Assembly: GCA_000217635.1 (NCBI GenBank)
Contig: CP001817.1
Coordinates: 90,001-122,000, forward strand
Direction of reading: 5' to 3'
Origin: Candidatus Saccharimonadota bacterium
Lineage (GTDB): Bacteria; Pseudomonadota; Gammaproteobacteria; Enterobacterales; Enterobacteriaceae
DNA length: 32,000 nucleotides
Shown here: positions 1-32,000 of the stretch, one piece after another
How the letters are laid out: the number at the start of each line of letters is the position of its first letter
How positions within the stretch are numbered: the stretch's first letter is position 1
Position numbers and translations under genes: made by a program
Notes under the pieces: generated by a model
Told to the model about the DNA's origin: nothing
The model's database searches: none
What the model saw: the letters and a program-made list of their open reading frames with translations, nothing else

Positions 1-89
1 GTCAATCAATTACGGATTCCTGTTTAGGCTGGGAAGATAGTGTTTTAATTTTGGAAAAATTAGCTAAGTCAGTTAGTAGACGTTTTTAG
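1..89 (+). CDS. aroH: 3' end of DAHP synthase (3-deoxy-7-phosphoheptulonate synthase), truncated by the window edge
   Basis: Frame 3 reads QSITDSCLGWEDSVLILEKLAKSVSRRF, with stop TAG at 87-89. The ITD.C.GWED motif and the C-terminal length match enterobacterial AroH/AroG/AroF tails as I recall them. Confidence 0.55.
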   Translation, partial: QSITDSCLGWEDSVLILEKLAKSVSRRF

Positions 90-304
90 GTGTCTTTTTA
101 ATATTTATTATTGATATTTATAAAAATTATTATTTCATTATAGAATTTTTATAAAAAAATTAGATAAAAATTTTTAACAAAAAATAATATTTTAATATAA
201 ATCATTTTTTTATAAATAAATGTTGAAATATTTTATATTTATTTATTTCTATCTAAAAATAGAAGATTGTGTTTATATTTTTATAAAGTTGTGAAGGATT
301 AAAC

Positions 305-2242
305 ATGCCGGTTATTATGTTATGTAATGGAATAAGTAAAACTTATAAACGTGCGGTTTCTTTAAAAAAAATAATTCAAGATTTATATCCAGTTACAGAG
401 CATAAAAATTTTATAGCTGGGTCAATTAATAAAAAAATAATTGATTTAAATACATTAATAATATGCGACTCTGTAATAACATTAATTAAAGAAGATGATA
501 AAAAATTTTTATCAATGATTAGATATACTTTTATACAGTTATTAAATTATGTTTTAAAAGAAATGTGGCCTTCAATACAATTAGCGGGAGGAAAAATATC
601 TGATTCAGGATTTTTTTGTGATTTTTATTGCCCAGTTTCTTTAAATAAATCAGATCTTAAAAATATTTCAACAAATATGTCTGATAAAATTGCTTTGAAG
701 TATAATATTATTAAAAAAAAGTATGTAAAAATTGGTTTTTTTCTATTTTTAAAAAAAAATAATGAAAAATATAAACTTGATATTATTAAAGAAAAGTTAA
801 TACAATCTAAAACTATTAATATATGTTATCATGAAAAATATTTTGAAGAATATGACATATCTCCAGTTCCTAATATTTCATTTTGTAGTCATTTTATTAT
901 AAAAAATATATCAGGTGTTTATTGGAAAAATAATAAAAAAAAATATAATGTTACAGCGTATTCATGGTATTGCGTGGGCATCAAAAATCAATTATTAAAT
1001 TATATATTCTCTCTTAAAAAATTTGAACAACGTGATCACCGTAAGATAGCAAAAAGATTAAATTTATATCATATACAAAAAAATTCCCCTGGTATGATTT
1101 TTTGGCATCAAAATGGATTTATTATTTTCCAAGAACTAAAAAAATTTATTCGTATTAAATTAAAAAAATATTTATATTATGAGGTAAAAACTCCTATAGT
1201 GATTGATAAATCATTATGGAAAAAAAGCGGGCATTGGAAATTTTATAAAAATTCTATTTTTGTTACAAAGTCTGAAAATCAAGAATATTGTATTAAGCCT
1301 ATGAATTGTCCTGGACATGTACAGATTTTCAAACAAGGTATTAAATCATATAAAGATTTACCGATACGTATTGCGGAATTTGGTAGTTGTCATCGTAATG
1401 AGGCATCTGGTTCATTACATGGATTAATGAGGGTGCGTGGATTTACTCAAGATGATGCGCATATATTTTGTACAAACGAACAGGTAAAAACAGAATTAAA
1501 TTTTTGTATTAAAATATTATTTGAATTATATAATACTTTTGGTTTTAAAAAAATTACTGTAAAATTTTCTACCAGACCAATACAACGTATTGGACATGAT
1601 AAATTATGGGATCAAGCAGAAAAAGATTTAGAATCTGTATTAATTGAAAATAAATTGCCTTTTATTTATCAAAAAGGTGAAGGTGCCTTTTATGGTCCGA
1701 AAATTGAGATTGTTTTGGAAGATAGTTTAAAAAGATTATGGCAATGTGGTACTATTCAATTAGATTTTTATTTAGCAAAACAATTAAAAGCTTTTTATAT
1801 AGATAAAAATAATATTCGAAATTTTCCCATTATTATACACCGTGCTTTTTTAGGGTCTATTGAACGTTTTATTGGAATTTTAATTGAAGAATATAATGGT
1901 AGATTACCGGTATGGTTATCACCAGTACATGCGGTAGTTATGAGTATTTCTCAAAAAAATATTAATTTTGTTAAAAAAGTTACGAAATCATTAATAAAAA
2001 ATAGTATTCGTGTTATTTCTGAAATTTCAGAAAACAGTATTAATTTTAAAATACGTACATATGTTATGCAATATATACCATATTTATTAATATGCGGCGA
2101 TATAGAAGAAAAAAATAATTGTTTGACTATTCGATTACGTTCGGGTCGTCTTATTAAAATGCAAAAAATTGATGATTTTATAAAAAAAATTAAAGAAATA
2201 ATTTTTAATCGTAGTTGTTACGATTTTGATAGGGAGGATTAA
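305..2242 (+). CDS. thrS: threonyl-tRNA synthetase
   Basis: The 645-aa ORF is collinear end to end with E. coli ThrRS (642 aa). Matching segments include MPVI..., RDHRKI, CIKPMNCPGHVQIF, FGSCHRNE.SGSLHGLMRVRGFTQDDAHIF, GEGAFYGPKIE and IHRA.LGS.ERFIGIL.EE. It contains an out-of-frame patch at 944-982 (see findings). Confidence 0.95.
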   Translation: MPVIMLCNGISKTYKRAVSLKKIIQDLYPVTEHKNFIAGSINKKIIDLNTLIICDSVITLIKEDDKKFLSMIRYTFIQLLNYVLKEMWPSIQLAGGKISDSGFFCDFYCPVSLNKSDLKNISTNMSDKIALKYNIIKKKYVKIGFFLFLKKNNEKYKLDIIKEKLIQSKTINICYHEKYFEEYDISPVPNISFCSHFIIKNISGVYWKNNKKKYNVTAYSWYCVGIKNQLLNYIFSLKKFEQRDHRKIAKRLNLYHIQKNSPGMIFWHQNGFIIFQELKKFIRIKLKKYLYYEVKTPIVIDKSLWKKSGHWKFYKNSIFVTKSENQEYCIKPMNCPGHVQIFKQGIKSYKDLPIRIAEFGSCHRNEASGSLHGLMRVRGFTQDDAHIFCTNEQVKTELNFCIKILFELYNTFGFKKITVKFSTRPIQRIGHDKLWDQAEKDLESVLIENKLPFIYQKGEGAFYGPKIEIVLEDSLKRLWQCGTIQLDFYLAKQLKAFYIDKNNIRNFPIIIHRAFLGSIERFIGILIEEYNGRLPVWLSPVHAVVMSISQKNINFVKKVTKSLIKNSIRVISEISENSINFKIRTYVMQYIPYLLICGDIEEKNNCLTIRLRSGRLIKMQKIDDFIKKIKEIIFNRSCYDFDRED

Positions 2243-2245
2243 AGT

Positions 2246-2785
2246 ATTAAATTCAGAAAGAAAAATCAATTAATACACCCTCACCGTATAAATTATGAAA
2301 TTCGCTCGTTACAAGTGCGATTAACAAATTTAAATGGTGATTCTATGGGTATTGTTAACCTAAAAGATGCTTTAACTGAAGCAAAAGCATGCGGAGTAGA
2401 TTTAGTTGAAATAAGTCCAAATGCTGATCCTCCAGTATGTAAAATTATGAATTATGGAAAATTTCTTTATGAAAGAAGTAAAACTCTTAAACGTCAAAAG
2501 AAAAAACAAAAAGTTATACATATAAAAGAAATAAAATTTAGACCGAGTACTGAAGAAGGGGATTATAAAGTTAAATTACGTAATTTAATACGATTTTTAA
2601 AAGAAGGTAATAAAGTAAAAATTACTTTACGATTTCGTGGTCGTGAAATGGCACATCAATATATTGGAAGAAATTTATTATTACGTATAAAACAGGATTT
2701 AGATACTATTTCAATAGTTGAATTTTTTCCGACACGGATTGAAGGTCGTCAAATGGTTATGATGTTATCACCAAAGAAGATATAA
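2246..2785 (+). CDS. infC: translation initiation factor IF-3, with non-canonical AUU start
   Basis: The ORF track starts at GTG 2315, but the frame is open back to ATT 2246, just after the thrS stop (2240-2242). The extra residues (I)[26 protein letters not shown] align residue for residue with E. coli [27 protein letters not shown]. A Shine-Dalgarno sequence (GGGAGG) lies at 2232-2237. The AUU start is a known conserved feature of infC. Confidence 0.85.
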
Positions 2786-3600: not shown

Positions 3601-4608
3601 TTGAAATCTGAAGCTAAATTAATTAATTATACGGATCGCTTATTTTCTATATTTTTATCAGATTTAAAAAAAATCTATACGAATGATAAATTAAATCAAT
3701 GTAAATCTAAATATTTAGGTAAAAATAGTTTTTTATTGCGTTATTTAAAAAAATTATCTGCTTTAGATTTTGATTTAAAAATTAAGTATAGTAAAATTTT
3801 AAATATTATGAAAAAAAAATTCAATATTATATTTTATCTCGAAAAAAAATATATCAAAGATTATATGAATTTGAATAGAACAAATAAAAAATACTTTGAT
3901 GTTTCGTTACCTGGACGAAAAATTGACTATGGTTGTTTACATCCTATTACTTTAGTAATTAATGATATAGAAAGATTTTTTTATTATCTTGGCTTTTTAA
4001 CATATCACGGTCCTGAATTAGAAGATGTATATCATAATTTTGATGCGTTAAATGTTCCAATGCATCATCCTGCTCGCGATAAAAGTGATACATTTTGGTT
4101 TGATTCTAAACGTTTGTTACGAACTCAAACATCTAATATGCAAATAAGAATTTTAGAAAAAAATTCATGTCCAATAAAATTTATAGTACCTGGCAAAGTA
4201 TATCGTCGAGATTCAGATCAAACACATACACCAATGTTTCATCAAGTTGAAGGTTTAATAATTGATAAATCGATTTCTTTTTCAAATATAAAATGGATAT
4301 TACAAAATTTTATATGTCAATTTTTTCAGAATCAAAATCTTGTTTTTCGTTTTAGAAGTTCATATTTTCCATTTACTATCCCTTCAGCGGAAATGGATAT
4401 CCAAACATCTTCTGGAAGTTGGTTAGAGGTGTTAGGATTTGGAATGATACACCCAAATGTTTTAAAAAATTTTAATATTGATAATAAAAAATATTCAGCC
4501 TGTGCATTTGGTATCGGTGTAGAACGAATAGCTATGATAAAGTATTCGGTTTCTGATATCCGTTTATTTTTTGAAAATGATATACGTTTTTTAAAACAAT
4601 TTGTTTAA
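3601..4608 (+). CDS. pheS: phenylalanyl-tRNA synthetase alpha subunit
   Basis: DVSLPGR, LHP, HNFDALN.P.HHPAR, DTFWFD..RLLRTQTS, THTPMFHQ.EGL, SYFPFT.PSAE and FEND.RFLKQF all match E. coli PheS. The start is uncertain: TTG 3601 is the only canonical start before the conserved region, and the N-terminus is about 7 aa longer than in E. coli. Confidence 0.9.
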   Translation: MKSEAKLINYTDRLFSIFLSDLKKIYTNDKLNQCKSKYLGKNSFLLRYLKKLSALDFDLKIKYSKILNIMKKKFNIIFYLEKKYIKDYMNLNRTNKKYFDVSLPGRKIDYGCLHPITLVINDIERFFYYLGFLTYHGPELEDVYHNFDALNVPMHHPARDKSDTFWFDSKRLLRTQTSNMQIRILEKNSCPIKFIVPGKVYRRDSDQTHTPMFHQVEGLIIDKSISFSNIKWILQNFICQFFQNQNLVFRFRSSYFPFTIPSAEMDIQTSSGSWLEVLGFGMIHPNVLKNFNIDNKKYSACAFGIGVERIAMIKYSVSDIRLFFENDIRFLKQFV

Positions 4609-7400: not shown

Positions 7401-9554
7401 TTAAATATAAATTGTATAAAAAATGATCCAAATGAATTGGATCATAAAAATCTTAATTAATAAATTTTTTAATAGTATTTTATAAATAATAAAAATTAGT
7501 GATATATAAAAATATATTTTTATATTTCCTAAAATAGATAATCTAAATTTTCTTTTCTTTTTATTTTTATCATAAATAAATGATGTATCGAAAAAACTAT
7601 TTATTATTATTACTAATTTTTCTATATGAGAAACTATTATAGAATATTTTTTTTTATTTTTGATATCATTATAAATATTATTTAGTGACTTGATTAATAT
7701 CTCTTCTATAGAAGTAAGATTATTATGGTTTTTTATTTTCGGGAAATCGCTATACATTGTAAAATAATCTGGTTGATTTTTTAAGATATTTTCAACTCTT
7801 TTAAAAGTTTTTATGATCGGATCAATTTTTTTTTGTTTATATAATTTTTCTAAAATTAAAATTCTGGAATGTATATCGATAAAATCAATAGTATTTAAAG
7901 CAAAAACAGATTGTATGATTTTTTTATCACAACCCTTTTTTTCTAAAAAATGTTTAAATTTTGATAATATAAATTTTAATACATTCTTTTGAATTTGTTT
8001 TTTATTAGTAATATGTGAATATATATGAATAGATTTTTTTATCAATTGTACAATATTAATATTAAGTTCTTTTTCTATAATTATACGTATGATACCAATG
8101 GTAGCTCTACGTAATGCAAAGGGATCATTATGATTTTTTAATTTTTTTTCTAAACTAAAAATCCCAGTTATTGTATCTATTTTTTCAGCAATACTTAGAG
8201 CATAAGAAATGGGTTGTGTAGGTAAATTTGCTGTTGAGGTATTTGGTAGATATTGCTCTTTAATAGCTAGTGCTACTGTTTTTTTTTCTTTATTTTTGAT
8301 TGCATAATACATTCCAATACTACCTTGTAATTCTGGATATTCAATAATCATATATGTAGTTAAATCACATTTTGACAATAACGCTGCACGTTCTGTATCG
8401 CTAACATTAGCATTTATTTGTTTAGCAATATATATACTAATTAAACGTATTCGATTAGTTTTATCGTACATAGATCCTAATTTTTTTTTAAAGCATATAT
8501 TTTTTAATAATAATAATCTATCAAAAAATGGTATATTTAAATCTTTTTTTAAAAAAAATATAACATTGCTTAATTTAGATTTTAAAACACTTTCATTACC
8601 TTGAATAATGTTATTAGGATTTTTTGTTTCTATATTACTAATAAAAATAAATTTAGTTAAAATTTTTTTATTAATAACATCATATAAAGGAAAGTATTTT
8701 TGACATGCCTCCATTGTATGAATTAATATTTTTTTTTGGTATATCAAGATATTTTTTATTGAATTTCCATAAAGAATAACTGGCCATTCTACTGACGATG
8801 TTACTTCATTCAATTGTTTTTTATGAATTTTCGGTATACTATATAATTTTTTTGCTAATTTTATAATTTCATCTTTTATAAAATTTTTTCTTTTTTCATA
8901 ATTTATCATTACATAAAATTGATAAAAAAATTTTGATCTGTATTGTTTTGCACAGTTTATTTCAATTTTTTGAGGATTCATAAATACATGGCCTCGAGAA
9001 AATCGATTAGATGATAGATTAAAAATATTTATTGGAATAATTTGATCGTCCAATAATGCAATAATATTTCTAATAGGTCTTGAAAATTGAAATTTTTCTT
9101 CATTCCAATGCATAGTTTTTTTTGATGGTATATGAACTAATACATACAAAATAATTTTTTTAACTGTTCTAATAAGGAAATATTTTTTATATTTTGTTTT
9201 ACAAGTTAAGTATTTTTTTTTATTAATTGTTAAAGATTTTGCATCTTTTATATTGATACCGCAATGTTGAGCCCAGGAAAGAGCGATCGGTGTTGCATTT
9301 CCTTTTTCAGTAAAAGAATGATCTAATAACGGTCCTTTTTTACGTATTTCTTTATATTTTTGAATATAGTGTATCGAACAAATAGTAATAGCTAATCTTC
9401 GCGGGGTGGCAAATGATTTTATCATATCATATTGAATCTTATTTTTTTTAATGTTTTTTTTAAATATTTTTAAAAAAGATTTAGAAATACTTTTTAATTC
9501 TTGTGCTGGTAAATCTTCTATATATAATTCTAATAAAAAATCGTGCTTTTTCAT
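7401..9554 (-). CDS. glyS: glycyl-tRNA synthetase beta subunit. The annotated ORF carries an internal out-of-frame patch and a 3' frameshift, with the inferred ancestral stop at 7480-7482.
   Basis: Collinear with E. coli GlyS: ATPRRLA, VEWPV, QKYFP, NIE.K.P..II.GNE, LSKCDL.T.M..E, DPFALRRA. The ORF is 717 aa versus 689 in E. coli, and the excess is a hydrophobic tail created by a frame jump at the A5 run (7517-7521). Confidence 0.9.
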   Translation of the reverse strand: MKKHDFLLELYIEDLPAQELKSISKSFLKIFKKNIKKNKIQYDMIKSFATPRRLAITICSIHYIQKYKEIRKKGPLLDHSFTEKGNATPIALSWAQHCGINIKDAKSLTINKKKYLTCKTKYKKYFLIRTVKKIILYVLVHIPSKKTMHWNEEKFQFSRPIRNIIALLDDQIIPINIFNLSSNRFSRGHVFMNPQKIEINCAKQYRSKFFYQFYVMINYEKRKNFIKDEIIKLAKKLYSIPKIHKKQLNEVTSSVEWPVILYGNSIKNILIYQKKILIHTMEACQKYFPLYDVINKKILTKFIFISNIETKNPNNIIQGNESVLKSKLSNVIFFLKKDLNIPFFDRLLLLKNICFKKKLGSMYDKTNRIRLISIYIAKQINANVSDTERAALLSKCDLTTYMIIEYPELQGSIGMYYAIKNKEKKTVALAIKEQYLPNTSTANLPTQPISYALSIAEKIDTITGIFSLEKKLKNHNDPFALRRATIGIIRIIIEKELNINIVQLIKKSIHIYSHITNKKQIQKNVLKFILSKFKHFLEKKGCDKKIIQSVFALNTIDFIDIHSRILILEKLYKQKKIDPIIKTFKRVENILKNQPDYFTMYSDFPKIKNHNNLTSIEEILIKSLNNIYNDIKNKKKYSIIVSHIEKLVIIINSFFDTSFIYDKNKKKRKFRLSILGNIKIYFYISLIFIIYKILLKNLLIKIFMIQFIWIIFYTIYI
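7417..7445 (-). terminator. rho-independent terminator for glyS, lying inside the non-ancestral ORF tail
   Basis: On the minus strand, ATGATCCA (7445-7438) pairs with TGGATCAT (7430-7423) around a 7-nt loop. A T-run follows (complement of the A-run at 7418-7422). It lies downstream of the inferred ancestral glyS stop at 7480-7482. Confidence 0.6.
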
Positions 9555-11936: not shown

Positions 11937-12079
11937 CTGATAAAATATCACCTATAAATAATAACATTATTTTTTAATATATATAAAAAAATAAAAAAGT
12001 TAATTATTTTAATATTATTTATATTTGATTGATAAATATTTAAATTAATATTGTTAAAAATATTTTGATAGATAGAATT

Positions 12080-12152
12080 ATCGGCACGTACTAGAATTTA
12101 TTTAATATAATGAATAGGAAAATATATAAGTAATTATATTTTTCGTGCCGAT
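12080..12152. repeat. GC-rich 9-bp inverted repeat (ATCGGCACG / CGTGCCGAT) with a ~55-nt spacer, in the convergent rplY / dedA-family intergenic region
   Basis: The arms are at 12080-12088 and 12144-12152. The right arm is followed by TTTTTATT. These are the only GC-rich elements in a ~370-bp AT-rich spacer. Confidence 0.5.
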
Positions 12153-12305
12153 TTTTATTATATTTTATCAACAAATATTATTTATAAATTTATATATAAT
12201 ATCTTTATATTTTTTTTAAATAACATTCTGAATATTGTTATTAATATATCTGTACTATTTTTATTTTTATAAAAAAATAAATAATTTTTAAGTACTATTA
12301 AATAA

Positions 12306-12977
12306 TTAAAAATATAAAAAAATAAATTCTAATTTTAACATTAAAATTTTTTTAATGTCCTGTTTTTTATTTTTATACAAATAACGGTAAATCATATAGG
12401 AAAATAATATAAATATTCCAATACCACTACCTATTATAATATGATAAAATTTATTTTTTATTTTATTCGTTAAGTATTTAAAAATAATTAGCGTACATAT
12501 TCCTGGAGAAAAATAAATGATTGGCCATAATATACATGCTAAAATATCTGGAATTAGAAATTTATAAAATGATAATTTTAATACTCCGGATAACATAGGT
12601 ATTAATGGTCTAGTAGGTCCAATAAATTTTCCTAAAAAAACGGTAATAAAATTATATTTATATAAAAATGTTTGTATTTTTTCAATTAAATTTTTATTAA
12701 TCTGAAATAAAAGAATATTATTTATTTTATTTCTAAATTTTATTCCAAAGTAGTATGAAAAAATATCTCCTATTATACATCCTAACGCACTGCATATCCA
12801 TGCATGATAAAAATTTAATTGACCATTACCTATTAGCGTTCCAAAACTACCCATTATTACTAGTCCGGGTAATACTAATCCTATTAATGCTAGAGATTCT
12901 AAAAAAGACATTATAAAAACTATGATATTCAGATGATTTATAGCAAAATGGGTTGTATACATTAAAAAAGATTTCAT
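12306..12977 (-). CDS. yabI: DedA-family inner membrane protein (YabI-like)
   Basis: FLESLAL.GL.LPG, G.LIG.G.L.F.HAW, G.F.GPTRPL.PM..G.L.L and WP..YF.PG match E. coli YabI and the DedA family. The protein is multi-pass and hydrophobic. Confidence 0.8.
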   Translation of the reverse strand: MKSFLMYTTHFAINHLNIIVFIMSFLESLALIGLVLPGLVIMGSFGTLIGNGQLNFYHAWICSALGCIIGDIFSYYFGIKFRNKINNILLFQINKNLIEKIQTFLYKYNFITVFLGKFIGPTRPLIPMLSGVLKLSFYKFLIPDILACILWPIIYFSPGICTLIIFKYLTNKIKNKFYHIIIGSGIGIFILFSYMIYRYLYKNKKQDIKKILMLKLEFIFLYF

Positions 12978-13569
12978 AATTTCTCTTTTTTGTTTTAATT
13001 CAATAATTATTTAATATTGACTACTCTGAATATTTTTAAATTTTTTTTAATTTTTTTTTTTTTTATTACATTATAGTCAATGTTAATATTAGTCAAATAG
13101 GTATTTTTAATTTATTAATATTTATTAGTTTTTTATAAATATATTATTAACATACTATGAATATATCTAGGAATCAACTAATTTTAAATTGTTATTATTT
13201 GGTCAATATAATATATTATTTATATATCAATAAATATTAAATTATTAAAAAAATAAAATATACTTTTTTTATATAATTTTTTATAATAAATAGAGATTTT
13301 TATTATCGATATTATGATAATAAAATATTTATTTTATAATCAAAATATTATTAATATATTTCATAATAAAACATGTATTTTTATACTAAAAAAATAAATT
13401 TATTTATTATTTAATATTCTTAATTTTTTCTTTATAAGAATATCTTTTATATTAATTAAAGATTTTTTTATTTATTAAGATAAAGTATCTTATATACCAT
13501 TCAAATATAAAGATTTTATGTTATAAAAAATATATATGTAATATAAAAATATTAAATACAGAGTAGAGT

Positions 13570-14403: not shown

Positions 14404-14490
14404 ACATAAGTGCGGATGTAATCCTATTACAGAGCTTATATATTGTATGAAAATACTTTTTTTTAATATTTTTTTATATCAGGAATTGTT

Positions 14491-15313
14491 ATGAGTACTT
14501 ATATTATAGGAGATATTCATGGGTGTTATAAAGATTTTCAAAAATTATTAAAAATAATATCTTTTAATATAAAATATGATATTTTGTGGATTACTGGAGA
14601 TTTAGTTTTACGAGGTCAGGATTCATTATCTGTTCTTCGTTTTTTATATTCAATAAAAAATAATATAAAATTAGTATTAGGAAATAACGATTTAAATTTA
14701 ATTAAAATATTGCTAGGTTTACAACCAAACGATAATAAATTAAATATTAATAACATATTGCATGCTTTTGATCGAGATGTTTTAATGTTTTGGTTACTTC
14801 AACAACCATTAGTAAATATTGATATAAAAAAAATTATCTTAGTTCATGCAGGTATATTTCCTTTTTGGACTCTTGAAGAAATAATAAAATATAATAATAT
14901 ACTTCAAAAGTTATTAACTGGAAAAAGTTTTTTTTCTTTTCTTTCTGAATCTTTACAATATACAATGAAATTTTTTTCCTGGACTCAAGCATTAAATTCA
15001 AAAAAATATATTTTTTTTATTTTAAAAGCGTTTACTAGTATGAGATATATTTTTTTAAATGGAGATTTAGCTTTTTCTCATTTTAATAGTCATTTTGAAG
15101 CAAAAAAAAATAAATATTTATCCTTGGTTTGTATTAAAAAATAAAATTATAGAAACAACTAAATATACAATTATTTTTGGTCATTGGGCATCTATACGAG
15201 GTCAAGGTACACCTCGTAATATTATTGGTTTAGATACTGGGTGTTGTTGGAATGGTTGTTTAACTGCGTTACGTTGGGAAGATAAAAAATTTTTTTCACA
15301 AAATTGTTTATAA
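14491..15313 (+). pseudogene. apaH: diadenosine tetraphosphatase, split by a frameshift in an A9 run; the catalytic GNHD motif reads GNND
   Basis: ORF 14491-15144 (M.TY.IGD.HGC......LL, W.TGDLV.RG, LVLGNND) and ORF 15095-15313 (PWF......FGHWAS..G.GTP..I..LDTGCCW.G.LT.LRWEDK) are the N- and C-terminal parts of E. coli ApaH. They join if one A is removed from 15102-15110. Confidence 0.85.
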
Positions 15314-18662: not shown

Positions 18663-19812
18663 AATTTTTCCTTATCACGCATATTTTTAATAAATTTATT
18701 AAATAATTTTTCAATATCATTAGTGCCCGGACTGGCTTCTGGGTGTCCCTGAAAACCAAATGAATTTTTTTATATAATTTAATTCCTTGGATGGTTTGAT
18801 CAAATAATGAAACATGAGTTACTATAATATTTTTATTAATAGTGTTTGGATTTATTGTAAAGTTATGGTTTTGGGATGTTATAAAGACATGTTTTGTATT
18901 AATATTTTGGACGGGATGGTTGGATCCGTGATGACCAAATTTCATTTTTTTTATTTCAGCTCCCGCTGCTAATGCTAAAATTTGGTGCCCTAGACAAATT
19001 CCAAATATTGGAATGTGTAATTTTAATATTTTTTTTACGCACTTAATTGTGTCCGTACATAGACGAGGATCACCTGGACCGTTTGATAACAATACACCAG
19101 ATGGTTTTAATTTAATTAAAATATTGATTGGAGTATAATATGGTACCAGTGTAATTTGACATCCTTTTTTATTCAGTATATTAAGTATATTTTTTTTACA
19201 CCTAAATCGTATACAACTACATGTAATTTTTTCTTTATATTTTTTTGTATCATTAAAGTAATTATTTTTGTTTTTTATTATATAAATTATTACTAAAATT
19301 AGTCCATTGATATATTTTTTTGTACCTACATATTTAGTTAACTCTATTTGTTTTTTGCTTTTATAAGATTTTATTTTTTTTAATGCATGTTGGATATTTA
19401 TGTATTTGTTAGATTGAATACATCCATACTGCGATCCACGATTTCGTAATATTCTTGTTAATTTTCTGGTATCAATGTTAGAAATAACGATAATTTTTTT
19501 TTCTTTAATATATTGTAATAAATTTTTTGTACTTCGATAATTACTAGAAATATTAGAAATATTTTTTAGAATAACACCTTTGGCATAAATATTTTTTGAT
19601 TCTTCATCATCTATATTAACACCAACATTACCAATATGAGGATATGTAAAAGCAATTAATTGATCAGCATAAGATGGATCGGTTAAAATCTCTTGGTATC
19701 CTGTCATAGAAGTATTAAATACTATTTCACCTATTACATATCCATCGGTTCCAGAATTATAACCATGAAAAATAGTACCATCTTGTAACACTAAAATTGC
19801 TGGTTCTTTCAC
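18641..19812 (-). pseudogene. carA: carbamoyl-phosphate synthase small subunit, carrying four homopolymer frame jumps (three internal ones that cancel, plus one near the 3' end)
   Basis: The N-terminal part (VFNTSMTGYQEILTDPSY, TYPHIGNVG, DTRKLTR.LR) and the glutaminase core (SNGPGDP, P.FGICLGHQ.LALA.GA...KMKFGHHG.NHPV) are in the ORF frame. YQWTNFS, KLHVVVYDLGVKK and the C-terminal FGFQGHPEASPG lie in other frames (see findings). Confidence 0.85.
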
Positions 19813-19835: not shown

Positions 19836-20683
19836 ATTATTTATTTTATTTTTTTCAATAGAAGAAAGATTTTTAAATATGTCTGACATATTAAATAATC
19901 CATTTTTTTATTTTTAATCCAAATAGCAGCTTTTATAGCTCCCCTAGCAAAGGCAGATCGATTAGTTGCTTTATGTATAATTTCAATTTGTTCTCCGAGA
20001 TCGGCAAATAAAATTTTATGTTCTCCAATAATATCGCCTCCGCGTACTACGGAATAACCGATTTTATTTTTTTTACGAGGTCCGACGATTCCATATCTTT
20101 GAAATATTGTATCTTTATTAAAATTCCATCCCATAGATTCAGATATATTTTTTCCTATTTGTAAAGCGGTACCTGAAGGCGCATCAACTTTATTTCTATG
20201 ATGATATTCAATAATTTCAATATCTACATATTTACCAATAATAGAAGCGATATATTTTGTAATATTATATAATAAATTAATACCAATACTAAAATTTGGT
20301 GAAAAAAGTATAGCTATATTTTTTGCTGCCGATTTTATAGTTTTTAGTTGTTGTTCATTAAATCCCGTAGTTCCTATAATGATGTTTTTTTGATTTTTTA
20401 TACAGTATTTTAAATTATTTATAGTATTTTGGGGAGTTGTAAAATCTATTAATACGTCATATAATAAATTTCTTTCATGGTTATTTTTTAATATTTTTAA
20501 AAAAAAGTAATTTAGAAAATCTTTTTTTATTTCTGACTGTTGTTCTTTTGCTTTTTTAGAATTTTCATTAATAATAGCACCTATTAATGATGTCTCTTGA
20601 TTTTTTATTGTTTCTTTAATTAATATCTTTCCCATGCGACCAAAAGCGCCGGAGATTATTATTTTTGTTTTTTCTTGATTCAT
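19836..20683 (-). CDS. dapB: 4-hydroxy-tetrahydrodipicolinate reductase, with a 3'-terminal frame jump at an A7 run
   Basis: From ATG 20683, MNQEKTKIIISGAFGRMG puts GRMG at the same position as in E. coli DapB. IDFT.P, IGTTGF, E..HR.K.DAPSGTA and GEH...FA..GE..EI.HKA..R..FA.GA match. The conserved C-terminus NGLFNMSDIF is in the +1 frame after 19903-19909, with the inferred stop at 19836-19838. Confidence 0.85.
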
Positions 20684-20949: not shown

Positions 20950-23793
20950 TTATACAAATAAACGACTTTCTTCTTTTCCTTCAATATTATTCACACATCG
21001 AGCGCAAATATGTATATTTTTTTTAAATTCTTGTAAATATTTAGAATAATTCCAACATCTTTGACATTTTATTCCATTTATTTTTTTAATTAAAAATTGT
21101 ACGTTATTAAATAGACTATTTCTTTTTAAATTCATAGGCGCAAATTTATAGTGACTTAACTTTACTTGTGATACTGAAAATATGAATTTTAATTCTAAAC
21201 AAATAGGTGATAGAATATTTAATATTTTATTATTCGTATATAAAATAACTTCTGTTTCTAGAGAATTTTTAATTTTTTCTTTTTTTATTTTTTTTTCTAA
21301 AATTTTATTTATTTCATTTCGTAATAAGAATATTTTTTTCCAGAAAAAATTATTAAATTTTTTACATGGAGGTATATATTTAATTTTTTTAAACCATTGA
21401 GAAATAAAAATAAATTTTTCTTTATTACCGTGTAATTGCGTCCAAATTTCTTCTGAAGTAAAAGATAGTATAGGGGAAATCCAGCGAACTAATGATTGTA
21501 ATATATAGTATATTGTAGTTTGACTACTTCTCCGAGCTTGACTTTTTTTATTCATGGTATATTGACGATCTTTAATAATATCTAAGTATCGTGATCCTAA
21601 ATTTATTGAACAAAAATAAATAATTTTTTGAACAACATCATGGAAATTATATTCTTGATATTCTTGAATAATTAAAAGTTGTGTTTGGTAAGTTTTTTGT
21701 AAAATCCATCGATCTATAAATAACATTTTTTTATAAGAAATAAGATGTTTCGAAGAATCAAAATCAAAAATATTAGATAATAAAAATCGAATTGTGTTTC
21801 TTATTCTACGATAGTGATCAGAAATTTGTTTTAAGACTGTATTAGAAATGGAAATTTCAGTAGAATAATTAGTATATGCTACCCATAACCTTAAAATGTC
21901 TGCTCCCCATATCTTAATAATATCCTGAGGTTTAATTGTATTATTTAATGATTTTGACATCTTTTTTCCATTTTTATCAACTACAAAACCATGAGTAATT
22001 ACGGTTTGGTACGGAATTTGTTTTTTTGTAATCATAGATATTATTAAAGACGACATAAACCAACCACGATGTTGATCTGATCCTTCTAAATATAAATCTG
22101 CTATATTATTTGTTTTATTTAATACATTGTATTTGTATATATTTAATCGATGATTAGATCCTGACTCAAACCATACATCTAAAGTATCTGTAACTTTTTT
22201 ATATAGATGGATATCTTCTTTTTTTAAAAAATCTCTTTTATTTAATTTCCACCATATTGTACTGCCATGTATTTTAATTTTTTTAATAATTTTTTGGAGT
22301 ATATTAAATGTATCAGAATGCGGTTTTCCAGTTTTTTTATGTATAAAAAATGGAATCGGAACACCCCATGTTCGCTGTCTTGAAATACACCAGTCAGGTC
22401 TATTTTTCAGCATATTCTTCATTTTTTCTTTATTCCATTGAGGAATCCATGAAGTATTTTCGATTTTTTCTGATAATTCTTTTAACCAAGATGAGTTTGA
22501 GGTTTTTATAAACCATTGCGGTGTTGCTCTAAAGATTACCGGTTTTTTATGCCGCCAACAATGAGGGTAAGAATGTATAATATCTTCTGTATATAATAAT
22601 GCATTATTTTTTTTTAATAATTTTAAAACAATATTTTCTTTATTAAAAATATATTTTTTATTTAGTTTAGGAAAGGAGATTAATTTATAATACCCTTTTG
22701 AGTTTATTATATTTATAGGATTAATATTATTTTTTTTACACTCAATAAAATCTTCTAATCCATGATCAGGCGACATATGTACAATACCTGTTCCTAAAAT
22801 TTCTGTAACATATTTTGATATAATAATTGGTATTTCAACATTAAAAAAAGGATGTAATGTTATTAAATCTTTTAATATTTTTCCGGAAAAAATAGAAATT
22901 ATTTTCCATTTTTTAGTATTCATTTTTTTCATTACAGATTCTGTTAATTTAACACTACATATATAATGTTTTTTTTGGACTTTAATTAATTGATAATAAA
23001 AATTTATATTAACAGCAATAGCTTGAGAAGAAGGTAAGGTCCAGGGAGTTGTTGTAAAAATTATAACCGAAATATTATTAATATCATTGAGAGTTTCTTC
23101 ATTTTTATAGGGATAAATTTTTTTAAAAAATTTTTTTGTATCTAAAAGTGTATAAGTTATATAAACAGAAAGAGATTTTTTAGGAAAGTAATCTATTTCT
23201 GCTTCTGCTAAAGCAGATTGACATTTTAAGCACCAATAAATTGGTTTAAAATCTTTAAATATATATCCTTTTTTAAAAATATCTGCTAAAGTTTTAATAG
23301 TATTGGCTTCGTTTACATAATCCATAGTACAACTTGCATTATTCCAGTCCGCTAAAATACCTAATCGAATGAAATCTTTTTTTTGTTTTTTGATTTGTTT
23401 TTTTGTGTATTTAAAACAAAGTTTATGAAAATCATTTTTAGTAATTTTTTTTAATATATTTAATTTTTTTTCTATTTTTTGTTCTATAGGTAATCCATGG
23501 CAATCCCAGCAAGGTATAAATGGAGCATAAAATCCTGACATACGTTTAAATTTTAATATAATATCTTTTAAAATTTTATTAACAGCATGTCCAATATGTA
23601 TTTCCCCGTTAGCATAAGGAGGTCCATCATGCAAAAAAAAATATTTTTTTCGTTCTTTTGACAGAGTATTAATTATTTTATATAAATGGATTTTTTCCAA
23701 TTTTTTTAAAATTTTTGGTTCTTTTTTTATTAGATTTGCTTTCATTGAAAAATTTGTTTTAGGTAAATTTAAAAAATTTTTATTAGTATTCAT
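20950..23793 (-). CDS. ileS: isoleucyl-tRNA synthetase
   Basis: From ATG 23793, [21 protein letters not shown] is the same length as E. coli [67 protein letters not shown], KMSKS and the C-terminal CxxC...CxRC zinc motif are all present. It appears intact. Confidence 0.95.
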   Translation of the reverse strand: [947 protein letters not shown]

Positions 23794-24609: not shown

Positions 24610-25752
24610 TTATGCAGTTAAGTTATCAAAAAATCTTTTTACACTATCGAAAAAATGTTTTGAACGCGGGCTATTATTTTTTCCTTTATAATTATTTCCA
24701 AAACTTTGACCTAATTTTTGTAAAAGATCTTTTTGAGATTCATTTAAATTGACGGGGGTTTCTACAATAACTTTACAGAATAGATCGCCAGGATATCCTT
24801 TACGAACTGAAGTTACACCTTTACCTCTAATTCTAAATAGTTTTCCGGATTGTGTTTCAGGCGGTATTTTAAAATTAATTCTTCCAGTAAGCGTTGGAAC
24901 TTCTATTTCTCCTCCTAAAGCAGCTAAAACAAAAATTAATTGGGACTTCACAAGATAAATTATTTTCATCTCGTTCAAAAATATTATGTTTTTTACGGAA
25001 ATTTGTACATATAAATCTCCTGAATTTGCGCCACGTTTTCCTGCTTCACCTTCTTTATTTAATCGAATTCGATCGTTTGTATTAATACCTGCAGGAATCT
25101 TAACGGATAATTTCTTGGATTTTTTAACTCTACCTTGTCCATAACAGATTGAACATGGATTTTTAATAATAGTTCCGGTACCATGACATGTTGGACATGT
25201 TTGTTGTACACTAAAAAATCCTTTTTGCATTTGAATTTGTCCATGTCCATTACAACTATGGCATGAATTGGATGCTGTTCTATTATTAGAACCAGTACCA
25301 TAGCAAGCGTGACATTTTTCAAATCTTGGAATTATTATTTCTTTAGTTATTCCATGAACTGCTTCTTCTAAAGTTAAAGTGAGATTATATTGTAAATCAG
25401 AGCCTTTTTCTTGCGTTTTTTGTTGATTATTACCGAAAATATCTCCAAATACATCTCCAAAAATATCATTAAAATCTGATGTTGATGATGTAAAGGTACT
25501 ATTAAATCCATTGGTTGTATTATTTTGTTCAAAAGCAGCATGTCCATATTGATCATAAGCGGCTCTTTTTTTACTATCACTTAGTACTTCATAAGCTTCT
25601 TTAACTTTTTTAAATTTTTTTTCTGCGTCTTTTTTTCCTTGATTTCGATCTGGATGATATTTCATTGCTAATTTTTTATAGGCTCTTTTAATTTCATAAT
25701 CTGTTGCGGTATTACTTAGCCCTAATGTTTGGTAATAATCGTTTTGTGCCAT
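24610..25752 (-). CDS. dnaJ: chaperone DnaJ; the ORF is open but holds an ~18-codon patch read out of the ancestral frame
   Basis: The J domain (DYY..LG......[17 protein letters not shown]), the G/F region, four CxxCxGxG zinc-finger repeats and the C-terminal NSPRSK.FFD.VK.FFD.LT match E. coli DnaJ (380 versus 376 aa). Confidence 0.93.
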
Positions 25753-25773
25753 GATTTTTTATTATTCTTAGTA

Positions 25774-27777
25774 TTAAAAATTATATAAACGGATGAAAAT
25801 ATTTTTACATCCGTTATATAATATTTGAGTGATATATGAAAATATTTTATATAATTTATGGTTATTTTTTTTGTTTTCTTTTACTTCTTCAAATTCTGCA
25901 TCTTCAACATTTTCTGTTTTTTTATTATCATTAATATCATTTGGTTGATTTTTATTATTTTCTTCGTTTTGTTGAATTTTTGTGATATTTTCATTTAGTT
26001 TAATAACATTTGTTATTTTTTCTTCTATATTTTTTTTGTTCTCTCCTTTTAAAGCTATTTCTAAATCTTGTAGAGATTGTGAGATTTCATTTTTTATAGA
26101 GTTTGAAATTTTATCTTTATATATTTCTAATTGTTTTTTAGTACTATGGATTAGTTGATCGCCTTGATTACGTACTTTTACTAATTCTTCGAATTGTAAA
26201 TCTTTTTCAGCATTTTCTTGAGCTTCAGAAATCATTTTTTTTATTTCAGATTCATTCAATCCAGATGATGCTTGTATTGTGATTTTTTGTTCTTTTCCGG
26301 TTGTTTTATCTTTTGCAGAAACATGCAAAATTCCATCAGAATCAATATCAAAAGTTACTTCAATTTGTGGAATTCCTCGTGGAGCACCTTGAATTCCATC
26401 TAAATTAAATTGTCCTAATGATTTATTATCTGCTGCTCTTTTTCTTTCTCCTTGTAAAATGTGAATTGTAACAGCGGATTGATTATCTTCTGCAGTAGAA
26501 AAAACTTGGCTATGTTTTGTAGGAATAGTAGTATTTTTTCCTATTAATGGAGTCATAATTCCACCCATAGTTTCTATACCTAAAGATAAAGGTGTAACAT
26601 CTAATAATAAAACATCTTTTACATCTCCAGACAATACTCCGCCCTGTACTGCAGCACCAACCGCAACCGCTTCATCAGGATTAACATCTTTTCTTGGTTC
26701 TTTTTTAAAGAAATCTGCAACCTTTTTTTGTACTAATGGCATCCTTGTTTGCCCACCTACTAAAATGACATCATGAATTTGTGAAATATTTAATCCAGCA
26801 TCTTTTAGTGCCACTTGTACAGGATTGATAGATTTCATAATTAAATCTTCAACTAAAGATTCTAATTTTGATCTGGTAACTTTAATATTTAAATGTTTTG
26901 GACCAGTTTTATCAGCACTAATATATGGTAAATTTACATCTGTTTGTTGAGCAGAGGAAAGTTCTATTTTTGATTTTTCTGCAGCTTCTTTTAATCTTTG
27001 CATTGCTAAAGGATCATTTCGTAGATCTATTCCTTGTTCTTTTTTAAATTCATTTACTAAAAAATTAATTAATCGATTATCAAAATCTTCACCACCTAGA
27101 TGTGTATCTCCATTTGTTGCTAATACCTCAAAGGTTTTTTCTTTATCAACATCATCAATTTCTATAATAGAAATATCAAATGTTCCTCCGCCTAAATCAT
27201 ATACAGCTATGGTACGATTTCCTTTACCTTTATCTAATCCATATGCTAATGCAGCTGCGGTAGGTTCATTAATGATTCTTTTGACATTTAATCCTGCTAT
27301 TCTTCCGGCATCTTTTGTAGCTTGTCTTTGAGCATCATTAAAATAAGCAGGAACAGTAATAACAGCTTCTGTCACTTTATGTCCTAAATAATCTTCAGCA
27401 GTTTTTTTCATTTTTTTTAAAATTTCTGCAGAAATTTGAGGTGGAGCAATATTATCATTATTTACTTTTATCCATGCATCTCCATTATTTGATTCAATAA
27501 TTTTGTATGGCATAATTTTTAGATCACGTTGAATATCATCTTCTTTAAATTTTCTTCCAATTAATCTTTTAATGGCAAACAATGTATTTTTTGGATTTGT
27601 TATAGCTTGTCGTTTTGCTGGTTGACCTACTAATATTTCATTATTTAATGTGTAAGCAATGATAGAAGGAGTGGTTCGATCTCCCTCAGCGTTTTCTAAA
27701 ACTCGAGCTTTAGTTCCATCCATGATTGCTACACATGAATTTGTTGTTCCTAAATCAATTCCTATAATTTTACTCAT
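25774..27777 (-). CDS. dnaK: chaperone DnaK (Hsp70); the ORF runs 28-29 codons past the conserved C-terminus
   Basis: Near-identical to E. coli DnaK from [16 protein letters not shown] through AEFEEVK.. . The ORF is 667 aa versus 638 in E. coli. One extra A in the A8 run (25865-25872) would create TAA and give exactly 638 aa. Confidence 0.96.
25788..25815 (-). other. dnaK-dnaJ intercistronic stem-loop (AACGGATG / CATCCGTT)
   Basis: A perfect 8-bp inverted repeat, at 25788-25795 and 25808-25815, with a 12-nt loop. It is GC-richer than its surroundings and lies inside the 28-codon tail of the dnaK ORF that extends past the conserved C-terminus. Confidence 0.55.
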
Positions 27778-28157: not shown

Positions 28158-28535
28158 ATGACATTATATAATTCAAGGCAAGTTGATAATTTTTTATTTT
28201 TATTTGTGGTAGTTTTTTATTTGTATGATTATGTTATTATGTGGTTTTTTTTAGGTGCAAAATCTGAATCTAAAAATAGAGATATACCTTTTGAATCAGG
28301 CGTTAATACTGTTGGACGAATTAATTTACGAATGCCTATTCAGTTTTCTTTATTTGCTATTTTATTTGTAATTTTTGATGTTGAGGCTTTTTATTTATAT
28401 TTATGGTCAGTTAATGTAGAGGAAGTAGGTTGGATAGGTTTTTTTGAAATATTTTTTTATTATAATGTTTTTAATTACTATCTTGTATTTAATAAAAAAA
28501 ATATGTTAAAATGGATTTTATCTCATAAAGAATAA
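28158..28535 (+). CDS. nuoA: NADH-quinone oxidoreductase subunit A; the ORF is open but probably contains two short out-of-frame patches
   Basis: SKN.....PFESG....G......P..F...A..FVIFDVEA.YL..WS.......GW.GF.E matches E. coli NuoA. It is the first gene of a nuoA-B-CD-E-F series. Confidence 0.88.
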   Translation: MTLYNSRQVDNFLFLFVVVFYLYDYVIMWFFLGAKSESKNRDIPFESGVNTVGRINLRMPIQFSLFAILFVIFDVEAFYLYLWSVNVEEVGWIGFFEIFFYYNVFNYYLVFNKKNMLKWILSHKE

Positions 28536-28639: not shown

Positions 28640-29320
28640 ATGAAATATACATTAACACGTATTCATAAAAAAAAAAAATAAATTGTTAAAATCCTATCCT
28701 TTACGTGATGTACAAACAGCTATAGATCCATTTGAAGAATATTTAAAAAAATAATATTTTTTTTGGAAGTATTGCAAAATTTTTTCACAAATGTGTTAAC
28801 TGGGGCCGTAAAAATTCTTTATGGCCATATAATTTTGGTCTTTCATGTTGTTATGTAGAAATGGTTAGTGCTTTTACTTCGATACATGATGTATCTCGTT
28901 TTGGTTCAGAAGTATTACGCGCATCTCCTAGACAGGCAGATTTTATGGTTATTGCTGGTACACCATTTATAAAAATGGCTCCTGTAATACAACGATTATA
29001 TGATCAAATGTTAGAACCTAAATGGGTAATTTCTATGGGATCTTGCGCTAATTCTGGTGGTATGTATGACGTGTACTCAGTGGTACAAGGTGTTGATAAA
29101 TTTATTCCTGTAGATGTCTATATCCCCGGTTGTCCTCCAAGACCTGAAGCATATATTCATGGTTTACAGTTATTACAAGACTCAATTTCTCAAGAACATA
29201 GACCATTATCTTGGGTAATAGGAGAGCAAGGTATATATAAAGCTGATTTTGTTGCGGAAAAGAAAAAAAAATATTAATAGAATTGCTGTAACTAATATTT
29301 CAAATGACGATATTATTTAA
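28640..29320 (+). pseudogene. nuoB: NADH-quinone oxidoreductase subunit B, interrupted by three +1 A-run frameshifts (slippage-rescued gene, pseudogene or assembly error)
   Basis: Four consecutive frame segments reconstruct a full NuoB. They are MKYTLTRIHKKK / [24 protein letters not shown] / [41 protein letters not shown]...GCPPRPEA...PLSWV / [15 protein letters not shown]. For comparison, E. coli has MDYTLTRI..., ...[23 protein letters not shown]..., and ...RIAVTNLRTPDEI*. The ORF track only shows 28861-29277. Confidence 0.88.
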
Positions 29321-29443
29321 AATAAAATACCGTCTGTACGTATATTACTTATACATTTTATTTCACTCTTATTGTATGTTACTGTGGTAAAATCAAGTTT
29401 GATTTTTTTGACATACTTTTAAAAAATTTAATATAATATATTT

Positions 29444-31204: not shown

Positions 31205-31246
31205 ATAAAAATTTTAAAAATATAATTAATTATAGGAAATTTAATT

Positions 31247-31716
31247 GTGTTTCAATTAAGTAAAACTGAAATTTCAGAAATCAATATAAAAAAAAACATT
31301 ACTCTGATATGAGAGCTGTTTCTATAGAAGCTTTAAAAATTGTTCAGAAAAATAGAAAATGGATATGTACGGATGCAATTCTTTCTATTGCTACTATTTT
31401 AGGTATTTCAGCGGAAGAGGTAGAGGGTGTAGCGACTTTTTATTGTCACATCTTTCGTCAACCTGTAGGGCGTAATATAATTAAGTATTGTGATAGTGTA
31501 GTTTGTTTTATTAATGGATATTTAGATATTGAAAAAAAGTTAATGCAATTGTTAAAAATCAAAATTGGGGAAACAACACAAGACGGAAGATTTACTTTAT
31601 TACCAACATGTTGTTTAGGGGCATGTGATAAAAGTCCAGTATTATTGATTAATGAAGATATACATCATAACTTAACAGGTGATTGTATTTCTCATTTATT
31701 GGAAAAATATAAATAA
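31247..31716 (+). CDS. nuoE: NADH-quinone oxidoreductase subunit E, with a 5'-proximal frame jump at an A9 run
   Basis: ORF 31309-31716 matches E. coli NuoE from [13 protein letters not shown] onward ([41 protein letters not shown]). Upstream, GTG 31247 (AGGAAA 8 nt before it) opens [16 protein letters not shown], matching E. coli [24 protein letters not shown] (E. coli HYEDPRAAS) joins it only if the run 31288-31296 has 10 (or 7) As instead of 9. Confidence 0.85.
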
Positions 31717-31718
31717 AT

Positions 31719-32000
31719 ATGATGAAAAAAAAATCAGAAACACATCCTTTAACCTGGAGATTAGATGGATTATATACTCCTATTTGGATAGAGGAATATT
31801 CCAATAAAAATGGTTATAATGCATTGAAAAAAACATTAAAAACTTTAAGTTCTCAAGATATTATTTCATTAGTTACTAAATCTGGTTTAAAAGGAAGAGG
31901 GGGTGCTGGTTTCCCAACTGGTTTAAAATGGGAATTAATGGTAAAGAATTCTACTCCTCTTAAAAAACGTTATTTAATATGTAATGCTGATGAAATGGAA
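31719..32000 (+). CDS. nuoF: NADH-quinone oxidoreductase subunit F, 5' part (truncated by the window edge)
   Basis: [15 protein letters not shown].......W..EY...NGY.....L........I...[19 protein letters not shown].........YL.CNADEME matches the E. coli NuoF N-terminus. Confidence 0.92.

What the first reader, a model, noticed from the sequence alone, without database searches (positions are those of the whole stretch)
1..32000. Window-wide pattern: ~22 single-nucleotide frame jumps at A/T homopolymers in 10 genes, many in tight compensating clusters
I compared each ORF with its E. coli orthologue, recalled from memory. In thrS, glyS, apaH, carA, dapB, dnaJ, dnaK, nuoA, nuoB and nuoE the conserved reading frame jumps by one nucleotide. 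Every jump coincides with an A- or T-run (A3 to A12, mostly 5-9).

Thirteen sites form compensating clusters. The pairs are 26-53 nt apart, and carA has a triple within ~130 nt. In these cases the ORF stays open, but about 9-39 codons are read in a non-ancestral frame. The other sites are uncompensated.

Conceptual +/-1 corrections restore orthologue-like lengths: DnaK 638 versus 638 aa, GlyS 691 versus 689, ApaH 273 versus 280, NuoB 225 versus 220.

The hidden ancestral-frame peptides are still strongly E. coli-like and free of stop codons. Examples are dnaJ at 16/21 identities and thrS at 10/13. So either these events are very recent or the ancestral frame is still what gets expressed. Transcriptional slippage at poly(A)/poly(T) tracts that rescues frameshifted genes is established for Buchnera and Blochmannia, in work I recall as Tamas et al. 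2008 and Wernegreen et al. 2010.

The tight +1/-1 pairing is not what random homopolymer sequencing errors would produce. Retention of the ancestral-frame signal is not what old compensated frameshifts would produce. The combination is therefore unexplained and worth resolving.
Basis: partly seen in the sequence, partly recalled or inferred. Interest (0 to 1): 0.75.

Follow-up and report, generated by a model that had tools for sequence, protein, structure and literature searches.

The report
Homopolymer miscounts in old Buchnera assembly
The roughly 30 one-base frame jumps really are in this database record (Buchnera aphidicola of the aphid Cinara tujafilina), but they are most likely miscounted A/T runs left by early sequencing and ORF-guided finishing, not frameshifted genes rescued by slippage.

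Summary
The window is Buchnera aphidicola BCt (Cinara tujafilina), GenBank CP001817. Frameshift-aware alignment to E. coli and to the two nearest Buchnera genomes finds 32 single-base indels in 11 genes, almost all at A/T runs. Correcting them restores orthologue lengths: DnaK 638, GlyS 691, ApaH 273, NuoB 225.

The pattern is not random:
- Indel frequency rises from 0.2% at runs of 3-4 to 23% at runs of 9.
- Sites are clustered (P about 5e-5).
- All 10 tight clusters sum to 0 mod 3.
- All 9 uncompensated sites lie in the first 16% or last 25% of a gene.

The hidden frames have no stops and are 69-72% identical to relatives, against 79-80% elsewhere. At many sites the corrected run length equals that of a relative.

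The same genes in both relatives show no concordant frameshift. Whole Blochmannia genomes have only 4-8 such genes.

The best explanation is still an artefact: homopolymer miscalls in a 2011 assembly (454 platform is my recollection only), shaped by ORF-guided finishing. Slippage rescue fits poorly. Confidence about 0.8. Interest is low.

The parts
713..759 (+). thrS compensated pair 1: A8 at 713-720 is one base short; T5/A9 at 746-759 has one extra base
   Evidence: The corrected A9 and T4 equal the runs in the relatives.
935..987 (+). thrS compensated pair 2: A9 at 935-943 has one extra base; A5 at 983-987 is one base short. The hidden peptide is KKNIMLQRIHGIAWAS.
7517..7521 (-). glyS C-terminal uncompensated site (T5 on + strand, one base short). 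It makes the annotated GlyS 717 aa instead of 691.
   Evidence: The corrected context is identical to relative A.
8729..8766 (-). glyS compensated pair: T9 at 8729-8737 has one extra base; T6 at 8752-8757 or T3 at 8764-8766 is one base short
9155..9188 (-). glyS second compensated pair: T7 at 9155-9161 is one base short; T6 at 9183-9188 has one extra base
   Evidence: (both references agree)
15102..15110 (+). apaH uncompensated site (A9, one extra base) at 75% of the gene. The annotated ApaH is 217 aa; corrected it is 273.
18765..18771 (-). carA C-terminal uncompensated site (T7, one base short)
19190..19321 (-). carA triple, each site one base short: T8 at 19190-19197, a middle run within 19227-19276 (exact run uncertain), and T7 at 19315-19321. 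Net -3.
19903..19909 (-). dapB C-terminal uncompensated site (T7, one base short)
20469..20532 (-). dapB triple in a variable N-terminal region, with runs at 20469-20475, 20484-20489 and 20522-20532. Less certain.
   Evidence: An alternative path appears at the lower penalty.
23691..23707 (-). ileS compensated pair 10 nt apart: T6 at 23691-23696 is one base short; T7 at 23701-23707 has one extra base. The genomic reading KLE replaces the conserved NWK.
24931..24994 (-). dnaJ compensated pair: A5 at 24931-24935 has one extra base; T6 at 24989-24994 is one base short. The hidden peptide [21 protein letters not shown] is 16/21 identical to E. coli.
25865..25877 (-). dnaK C-terminal site (T8 at 25865-25872 or T4 at 25874-25877, one base short). 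The annotated DnaK is 667 aa; corrected it is 638.
   Evidence: A hairpin with a U-rich tail lies inside the false 3' extension.
28190..28252 (+). nuoA triple, each site one base short: T6/T5 at 28190-28201, T6 at 28213-28218, T8 at 28245-28252
   Evidence: The corrected T7 and T9 equal the runs in the relatives.
28452..28501 (+). nuoA compensated pair: T7 at 28452-28458 has one extra base; A8 at 28494-28501 is one base short
28667..28764 (+). nuoB N-terminal sites: A12 at 28667-28678 has one extra base; A7/T8 at 28745-28764 has one extra base. The annotated NuoB starts at 28861 and lacks the GLSCCYVEM motif, which the DNA still encodes.
29263..29271 (+). nuoB C-terminal site (A9, one extra base)
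31288..31296 (+). nuoE N-terminal site (A9, one base short). Both relatives have A10.

Best explanation
These are errors in the deposited consensus sequence, not features of the living genome.

Proposed sequence of events:
1. The record is CP001817, published in 2011. From memory, it was produced by 454 pyrosequencing, which counts long A/T runs imprecisely.
2. Many runs were called one base too long or too short.
3. During finishing and annotation, miscalls that visibly broke a gene were repaired.
4. Some repairs were probably made by adding or removing a base at a nearby, wrong run so that the ORF closed again. That leaves a +1/-1 pair, or a net -3 triple, around a short out-of-frame stretch.
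5. Miscalls that left a long ORF were never noticed. These are tight compensating sets with no stop between them, and single errors near gene ends.
6. The longest ORFs were then annotated as intact genes.

What is shown: the indels, their link to run length, their ORF-preserving pattern, their absence from relatives, and the annotation of the mechanical ORFs.

What is inferred: the sequencing platform and the finishing practice.
For: 1. Identity of the record. PheT and IleS are 100% identical to Buchnera (C. tujafilina) proteins on a 444,925-bp contig. Nine of the frameshifted ORFs are exactly the GenBank proteins AEH39671-AEH39695, annotated as ordinary CDS.

2. Indel frequency per run rises steeply with run length: 0.2-0.3% at lengths 3-4, 2.3% at 5, 2.5% at 6, 5.3% at 7, 8.9% at 8, 23% at 9 and 50% at 10 or more. 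Both signs occur.

3. The pattern is specific to this record. The same genes in the two nearest Buchnera genomes show 0 frameshifts against E. coli and none on which two references agree.

4. Density is far above real cases. Here there are 32 indels in 11 genes within 32 kb. Whole Blochmannia genomes have 4-8 homopolymer-frameshifted genes.

5. The hidden frames have no stops and are 69-72% identical to relatives, against 79-80% for the rest of the same proteins. They include conserved elements such as the NuoB CC motif and the IleS Trp.

6. At many sites the corrected run length and its flanks equal those of a relative.

7. There is an ORF-level filter. All 10 tight clusters are net 0 mod 3. 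All 9 uncompensated sites lie in the first 16% or last 25% of a gene, which has probability 0.41^9 = 3e-4 if positions were uniform.

8. The false DnaK extension runs through a terminator-like hairpin (z = -4.6).

9. Precedent. Homopolymer indels unique to a 454-derived Portiera record were judged likely sequencing errors. A sister paper from the same lab in 2011 used 454, Newbler and Gap4.

10. Under uniform re-annotation, CP001817 has the most noncoding DNA and the most CDS among the Lachninae Buchnera listed.
Against: - Independent random errors plus a passive ORF filter give only 2-3.5 compensated clusters, even with 100-150 raw errors. Ten are observed. The artefact therefore needs an extra ingredient, either wrong-run repair or local error-rich zones, and I cannot verify either.
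- The source paper is not held. The 454 platform for this record is my recollection, not a tool result.
- No independent reads or second assembly of this strain could be found.
- Nine longer genes have no or almost no indels where about 13 would be expected from their runs. This calls for regional heterogeneity.
- A few uncompensated sites at very long runs could be genuine. Candidates are nuoB A12, nuoE A9, and apaH A9. apaH is missing from one relative.
Confidence: 0.8

Rival explanations
1. The indels are real, and the ancestral-frame proteins are made because RNA polymerase slips at the A/T runs. This is the rescue described by Tamas et al. 2008 and Wernegreen et al. 2010.
For: - All sites are at A/T runs and the ancestral frames are intact.
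- Slippage rescue is accepted for single poly(A) frameshifts in Buchnera and Blochmannia.
- Seven sites are at runs of 9-12.
Against: - 8 of the 11 genes need 2-5 slips of the right sign in one transcript.
- 11 sites need a transcript deletion. In Buchnera, only 16 of 57 transcript deletions fell in runs, against 151 of 157 insertions. No frame-restoring event was seen.
- Most runs are 5-8 nt long.
- None of the frameshifts is conserved in the nearest relatives. Conservation is the criterion used for real cases.
- For compensated pairs, an unslipped transcript already gives a full-length protein, so there is nothing for slippage to rescue.
Confidence: 0.06
2. The indels are real, very recent mutations in the BCt lineage. 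The tight sets are fixed compensated frameshifts, and the terminal ones are gene truncations or extensions or early pseudogenes. The genomic frame is what gets expressed.
For: - Net-zero clusters and terminal-only singles are what purifying selection would leave.
- Independent sequencing errors underpredict the compensation.
- apaH is absent in one relative, so relaxed selection on that gene is plausible.
Against: - Ten compensated clusters would all have to be recent enough that the abandoned frame shows no stops and near-normal conservation.
- They replace conserved segments of ThrRS, IleRS, DnaJ and NuoA.
- There are none in two sister genomes of similar size and composition.
- The density is tens of times that of any well-sequenced endosymbiont cited.
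Confidence: 0.05
3. Run lengths vary among the many genome copies and cells of this polyploid symbiont. The consensus picked a minority or arbitrary length at some runs.
For: - Frequency rises with run length, as expected for replication slippage.
- Long runs are known indel hot spots in these genomes.
Against: - This does not explain the net-zero clustering or the terminal bias without the same ORF-level filter.
- Short runs (3-6) are also affected.
- Relatives assembled from short reads show no such calls.
Confidence: 0.07

Closest known systems
Homopolymer-length miscalls in pyrosequencing (454) consensus sequences, for example the Portiera BT-Q record CP003835 discussed by Sloan and Moran 2013
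   Same: - The indels are +/-1 and confined to single-nucleotide runs.
- They are specific to one record and absent from sister genomes.
- Their frequency rises with run length.
   Different: - The density here is much higher, about 1.1 per kb of coding sequence.
- The surviving errors are strongly ORF-preserving and clustered. This points to ORF-guided finishing on top of the raw errors.
- The platform of this record was not verified with the tools.
Poly(A) frameshifts rescued by transcriptional slippage in Buchnera and Blochmannia (Tamas et al. 2008; Wernegreen et al. 2010)
   Same: - Single-base indels in A/T runs of otherwise intact genes in an AT-rich insect endosymbiont.
- The downstream frame stays conserved.
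   Different: - Known cases are one indel per gene, in long tracts, conserved among related strains, and number a handful per genome.
- Here there are up to five per gene, mostly in runs of 5-8, none shared with relatives, and 11 genes are affected within 32 kb.
Homopolymer indels as the first step of gene inactivation in endosymbionts (Moran, McLaughlin and Sorek 2009, cited)
   Same: The mutation type and the sequence context are the same.
   Different: Real cases are rare per genome and are followed by decay. Here essential genes (thrS, glyS, ileS, dnaK, dnaJ, nuo) are hit many times with no decay.

Membership tests
Slippage-rescued poly(A) frameshift (Tamas 2008 type) | A single indel per gene, so that one slip restores the frame | tested here: not met
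   8 of the 11 genes carry 2-5 indels.
Slippage-rescued poly(A) frameshift (Tamas 2008 type) | The indel lies in a long A/T tract (about 9 nt or more) | tested here: not met
   In one search's table of 28 sites, six are at runs of 9 or more. Most of the others are at runs of 5-8, and four are assigned to runs of 3-4.
Slippage-rescued poly(A) frameshift (Tamas 2008 type) | The frameshift is conserved among related strains or species | tested here: not met
   Both nearest relatives are in frame at every site.
Slippage-rescued poly(A) frameshift (Tamas 2008 type) | Transcripts are heterogeneous in run length while the DNA is not | not testable with these tools
   Needs DNA and cDNA amplicon sequencing.
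Sequencing or assembly homopolymer artefact | +/-1 indels confined to homopolymers, more frequent in longer runs, with both signs | tested here: met
Sequencing or assembly homopolymer artefact | Specific to one record and absent from closely related genomes sequenced otherwise | tested here: met
   The density is far above published real cases.
Sequencing or assembly homopolymer artefact | The affected frame shows no evolutionary consequence: no stops and normal conservation | tested here: met
Sequencing or assembly homopolymer artefact | The record was made with a homopolymer-prone platform | not testable with these tools
   The source paper is not held. 454 is my recollection. The same lab used 454 in 2011 and on this aphid.
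Sequencing or assembly homopolymer artefact | Independent reads disagree with the consensus at these runs | not testable with these tools
   No reads or second assembly could be reached.
Fixed compensated frameshift (real) | The abandoned frame decays and the new frame is the conserved one | tested here: not met
   The abandoned frame is 69-72% identical to relatives and free of stops.

The most novel reading that the evidence does not exclude
The deposited run lengths are correct. Under this reading, the BCt lineage has very recently accumulated dozens of homopolymer indels in essential genes. Many would be tight compensating sets, tolerated because polyploidy and polymerase slippage buffer the intermediates. 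That would make BCt a natural case of frameshift-and-compensate evolution at a density not seen in any other symbiont.
Probability: 0.07. Interest if true: 0.8.

Novelty: not a real feature. Interest (0 to 1): 0.12.

Why it matters
If this is an artefact, the value is practical.
- A reference genome used for scaffolding and comparative work would carry about one indel per kb of coding sequence.
- Its ThrS, GlyS, IleS, DnaJ, DnaK, CarA, NuoA, NuoB and NuoE entries in public protein databases would contain wrong segments or wrong ends.
- These errors would distort rate estimates, gene-loss calls and structure predictions.

If the run lengths were real, this would be an exceptional system for studying how essential genes survive frameshifts.

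Tried and rejected
1. The single genome-contig scan, run with CarB, returned only distant Gammaproteobacteria because one peptide pattern was too conserved. Relatives were obtained instead through the search for homologous proteins and the look-up of encoding contigs.

2. The window's own proteins are not in the contig index, so no flanks or other copies of the source were available.

3. The source paper (Lamelas et al. 2011) and Tamas et al. 2008 are not held. No held paper comments on frameshifts in CP001817.

4. A metagenome scan for either length of the dnaJ run found nothing.

5. I considered that carry-over in pyrosequencing might move one base from a run to the next run of the same nucleotide. 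Two of the seven pairs involve different nucleotides, and same-base pairs are expected anyway from K-codon runs, so I did not pursue this.

6. I tested independent random errors plus a passive ORF filter and rejected this as sufficient.

7. Candidate pairs in pheS (3811-3849) and ileS (23086-23103) are supported by one relative only. That matches the false-positive level seen in the controls, so they were not counted.

8. The terminator scan did not flag the dnaK hairpin. Folding did support it.
Full report
**Source of the window.** The window has 22-29% G+C. Its gene order is thrS-infC-rpmI-rplT-pheS-pheT-ihfA-glyS-glyQ-nfo-rplY-yabI-ksgA-apaH-carB-carA-dapB-ileS-rpsT-dnaJ-dnaK-nuoA-F. PheT and IleS are 100% identical to proteins of Buchnera aphidicola (Cinara tujafilina) on a 444,925-bp contig. 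Nine of the frameshifted ORFs are exactly GenBank proteins AEH39671-AEH39695, named as ordinary genes. The window is therefore part of CP001817 (strain BCt).

**Checking the observation.** I wrote a protein-to-DNA alignment that allows +/-1 frame jumps.
It finds none in thirteen other genes.
- The nearest available genomes are Buchnera of C. confinis (LT667503.1; identified) and a Logan contig from SRR21069242. With their proteins as references, both agree on 28 jumps.
- A lower frameshift penalty adds one pair in glyS and one in ileS, again in both references. The ileS pair turns the genomic 'KLE' back into the conserved 'NWK'.
- The total is 32 sites in 11 genes.
- Twenty-eight single-base edits at A/T runs give ThrS 645, GlyS 691, ApaH 273, CarA 391, DnaJ 380, DnaK 638, NuoA 126, NuoB 225 and NuoE 157 aa.

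**Is the pattern more than chance?** Yes, on several counts.
- 24 of the 28 sites lie at runs of 5 or more, whereas 22% of coding positions are that close to such a run.
- Indel frequency per run climbs from 0.2-0.3% at lengths 3-4 to 23% at length 9 and 50% at 10 or more.
- Sites are clustered even after weighting by run length. There are 12 gaps of 150 nt or less, against 3.45 +/- 1.64 expected (P about 5e-5).
- There are seven -1/+1 pairs and three -1/-1/-1 triples. Every one of these ten tight clusters is net 0 mod 3.
- The nine uncompensated sites all fall in the first 16% or last 25% of their gene. The probability is 0.41^9 = 3e-4 if positions were uniform.
- I simulated independent errors on the corrected sequence, keeping only those that leave an ORF intact. 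Even 100-150 raw errors gave only 2-3.5 compensated clusters, and no run in 400 reached ten.

**State of the hidden frames.**
- About 370 residues are read in the wrong frame or cut off in the record. In the corrected frame they have no stops.
- They are 69-72% identical to the two relatives, against 79-80% for the rest of the same proteins. Against E. coli the figures are 47% and 53%.
- They include the NuoB 'GLSCCYVEM' cluster-binding motif, which lies upstream of the annotated start, and the conserved IleRS Trp.
- At many sites the corrected run and about 25 nt of flank are identical to a relative. Examples are thrS A9 and A6, glyS A8 and A6, carA A8, dnaJ A7, nuoA T7 and T9, and nuoE A10.
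- The 29-residue extension of the annotated DnaK runs through a stable hairpin followed by a U-rich tail (z = -4.6). This looks like the gene's terminator, although the simple scan did not flag it.

**Controls and baselines.**
- The same genes in the DNA of both relatives show no frameshift against E. coli and none on which two references agree, even at the low penalty.
- Whole Blochmannia genomes sequenced with Illumina or Sanger have four to eight genes with homopolymer frameshifts. Here eleven genes are affected within 32 kb.
- In a uniform re-annotation of 90 Buchnera genomes, CP001817 has more noncoding DNA (78,487 bp) and more CDS (394) than the other Lachninae strains listed. That is what widespread ORF breakage would give.

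**Explanation.** The indels are specific to this record and depend on run length. They have left no evolutionary trace and are arranged so that long ORFs survive. The most economical reading is consensus error at homopolymers, followed by finishing guided by ORFs.
- Breaks that were seen were repaired. Some repairs were probably made at a neighbouring run rather than the true one. That produces a tight compensating set with no stop between the sites.
- Errors that did not break an ORF were left in place, and the longest ORFs were annotated.
- Local error-rich zones, for instance from low coverage, may add to the clustering.
- I recall that BCt was sequenced by 454 pyrosequencing, but I could not verify this because the paper is not held.
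- The same laboratory used 454, Newbler and Gap4 in a sister paper of 2011, and 454 on this aphid's bacteriocytes.
- Homopolymer indels unique to another 454-derived endosymbiont record were judged likely errors by others.

I put this explanation at about 0.8.

**Rival explanations.**
- *Slippage rescue* fits poorly. Most genes would need several slips in one transcript. Eleven sites would need a transcript deletion within a run, which is rare in Buchnera, where no frame-restoring event was observed. Most runs are short. None of the frameshifts is conserved in relatives, which is the criterion used for accepted cases.
- *Real, recently fixed compensated frameshifts* would explain the ORF-preserving pattern. 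But ten events in 32 kb would all have to be very recent, fall in conserved parts of essential proteins, and be absent from two sister genomes.
- *Length heterogeneity among genome copies* could contribute at the longest runs, but it does not explain the compensation.
- A few uncompensated sites at long runs could be genuine. Candidates are nuoB A12, nuoE A9 and apaH A9. apaH is absent from one relative.

**Verdict.** The feature is most likely not real. Mapping existing Illumina reads from this aphid's symbionts to the 32 runs would settle the matter.

Noticed in passing
window 3811-3849 (pheS) and 23086-23103 (ileS): Two further candidate compensating pairs at A9/A8 and T runs. Each is supported by only one of the two relatives, which is the level at which the controls also give spurious pairs.
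   Followed up: partly
window 25770-25830 (- strand): A stable hairpin (-14.7 kcal/mol, z = -4.6) followed by a U-rich tail lies inside the annotated 3' extension of dnaK. It is probably the dnaK terminator. The simple terminator scan did not flag it.
   Followed up: yes
window 2246-2248: The alignment to E. coli and Buchnera IF3 starts at an ATT codon just after the thrS stop. The unusual infC start codon therefore seems to be kept. The mechanical ORF list starts the gene later, at a GTG at 2315.
   Followed up: partly
window 14404-14490: apaG, which lies between ksgA/rsmA and apaH in E. coli, gives no tblastn hit. Only 87 nt separate the two genes.
   Followed up: partly
L087 18314-19089 (Logan SRR21069242 contig): No apaH gene is called between carB and ksgA in this relative, so apaH seems lost or eroded there. 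That makes the apaH frameshift in the window the most plausible candidate for a real lesion.
   Followed up: no
L086 22010-22844 / L088 16215-17082 (C. confinis Buchnera): nfo is called as 50-aa and 214-aa pieces, against 287 aa in the window and in the other relative. It may be split or truncated in that genome.
   Followed up: no
window 12978-13569: A spacer of about 590 nt between yabI and ksgA contains no ORF of 50 aa or more. It lies in the lowest-GC part of the window (15.9% over 12001-14000) and may be the remnant of lost genes.
   Followed up: no
whole record CP001817 (outside the window): In the Sci Data 2024 table of 90 Buchnera genomes, this record has the largest noncoding length and CDS count among the Lachninae strains listed. 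This is consistent with ORF breakage across the whole genome.
   Followed up: partly
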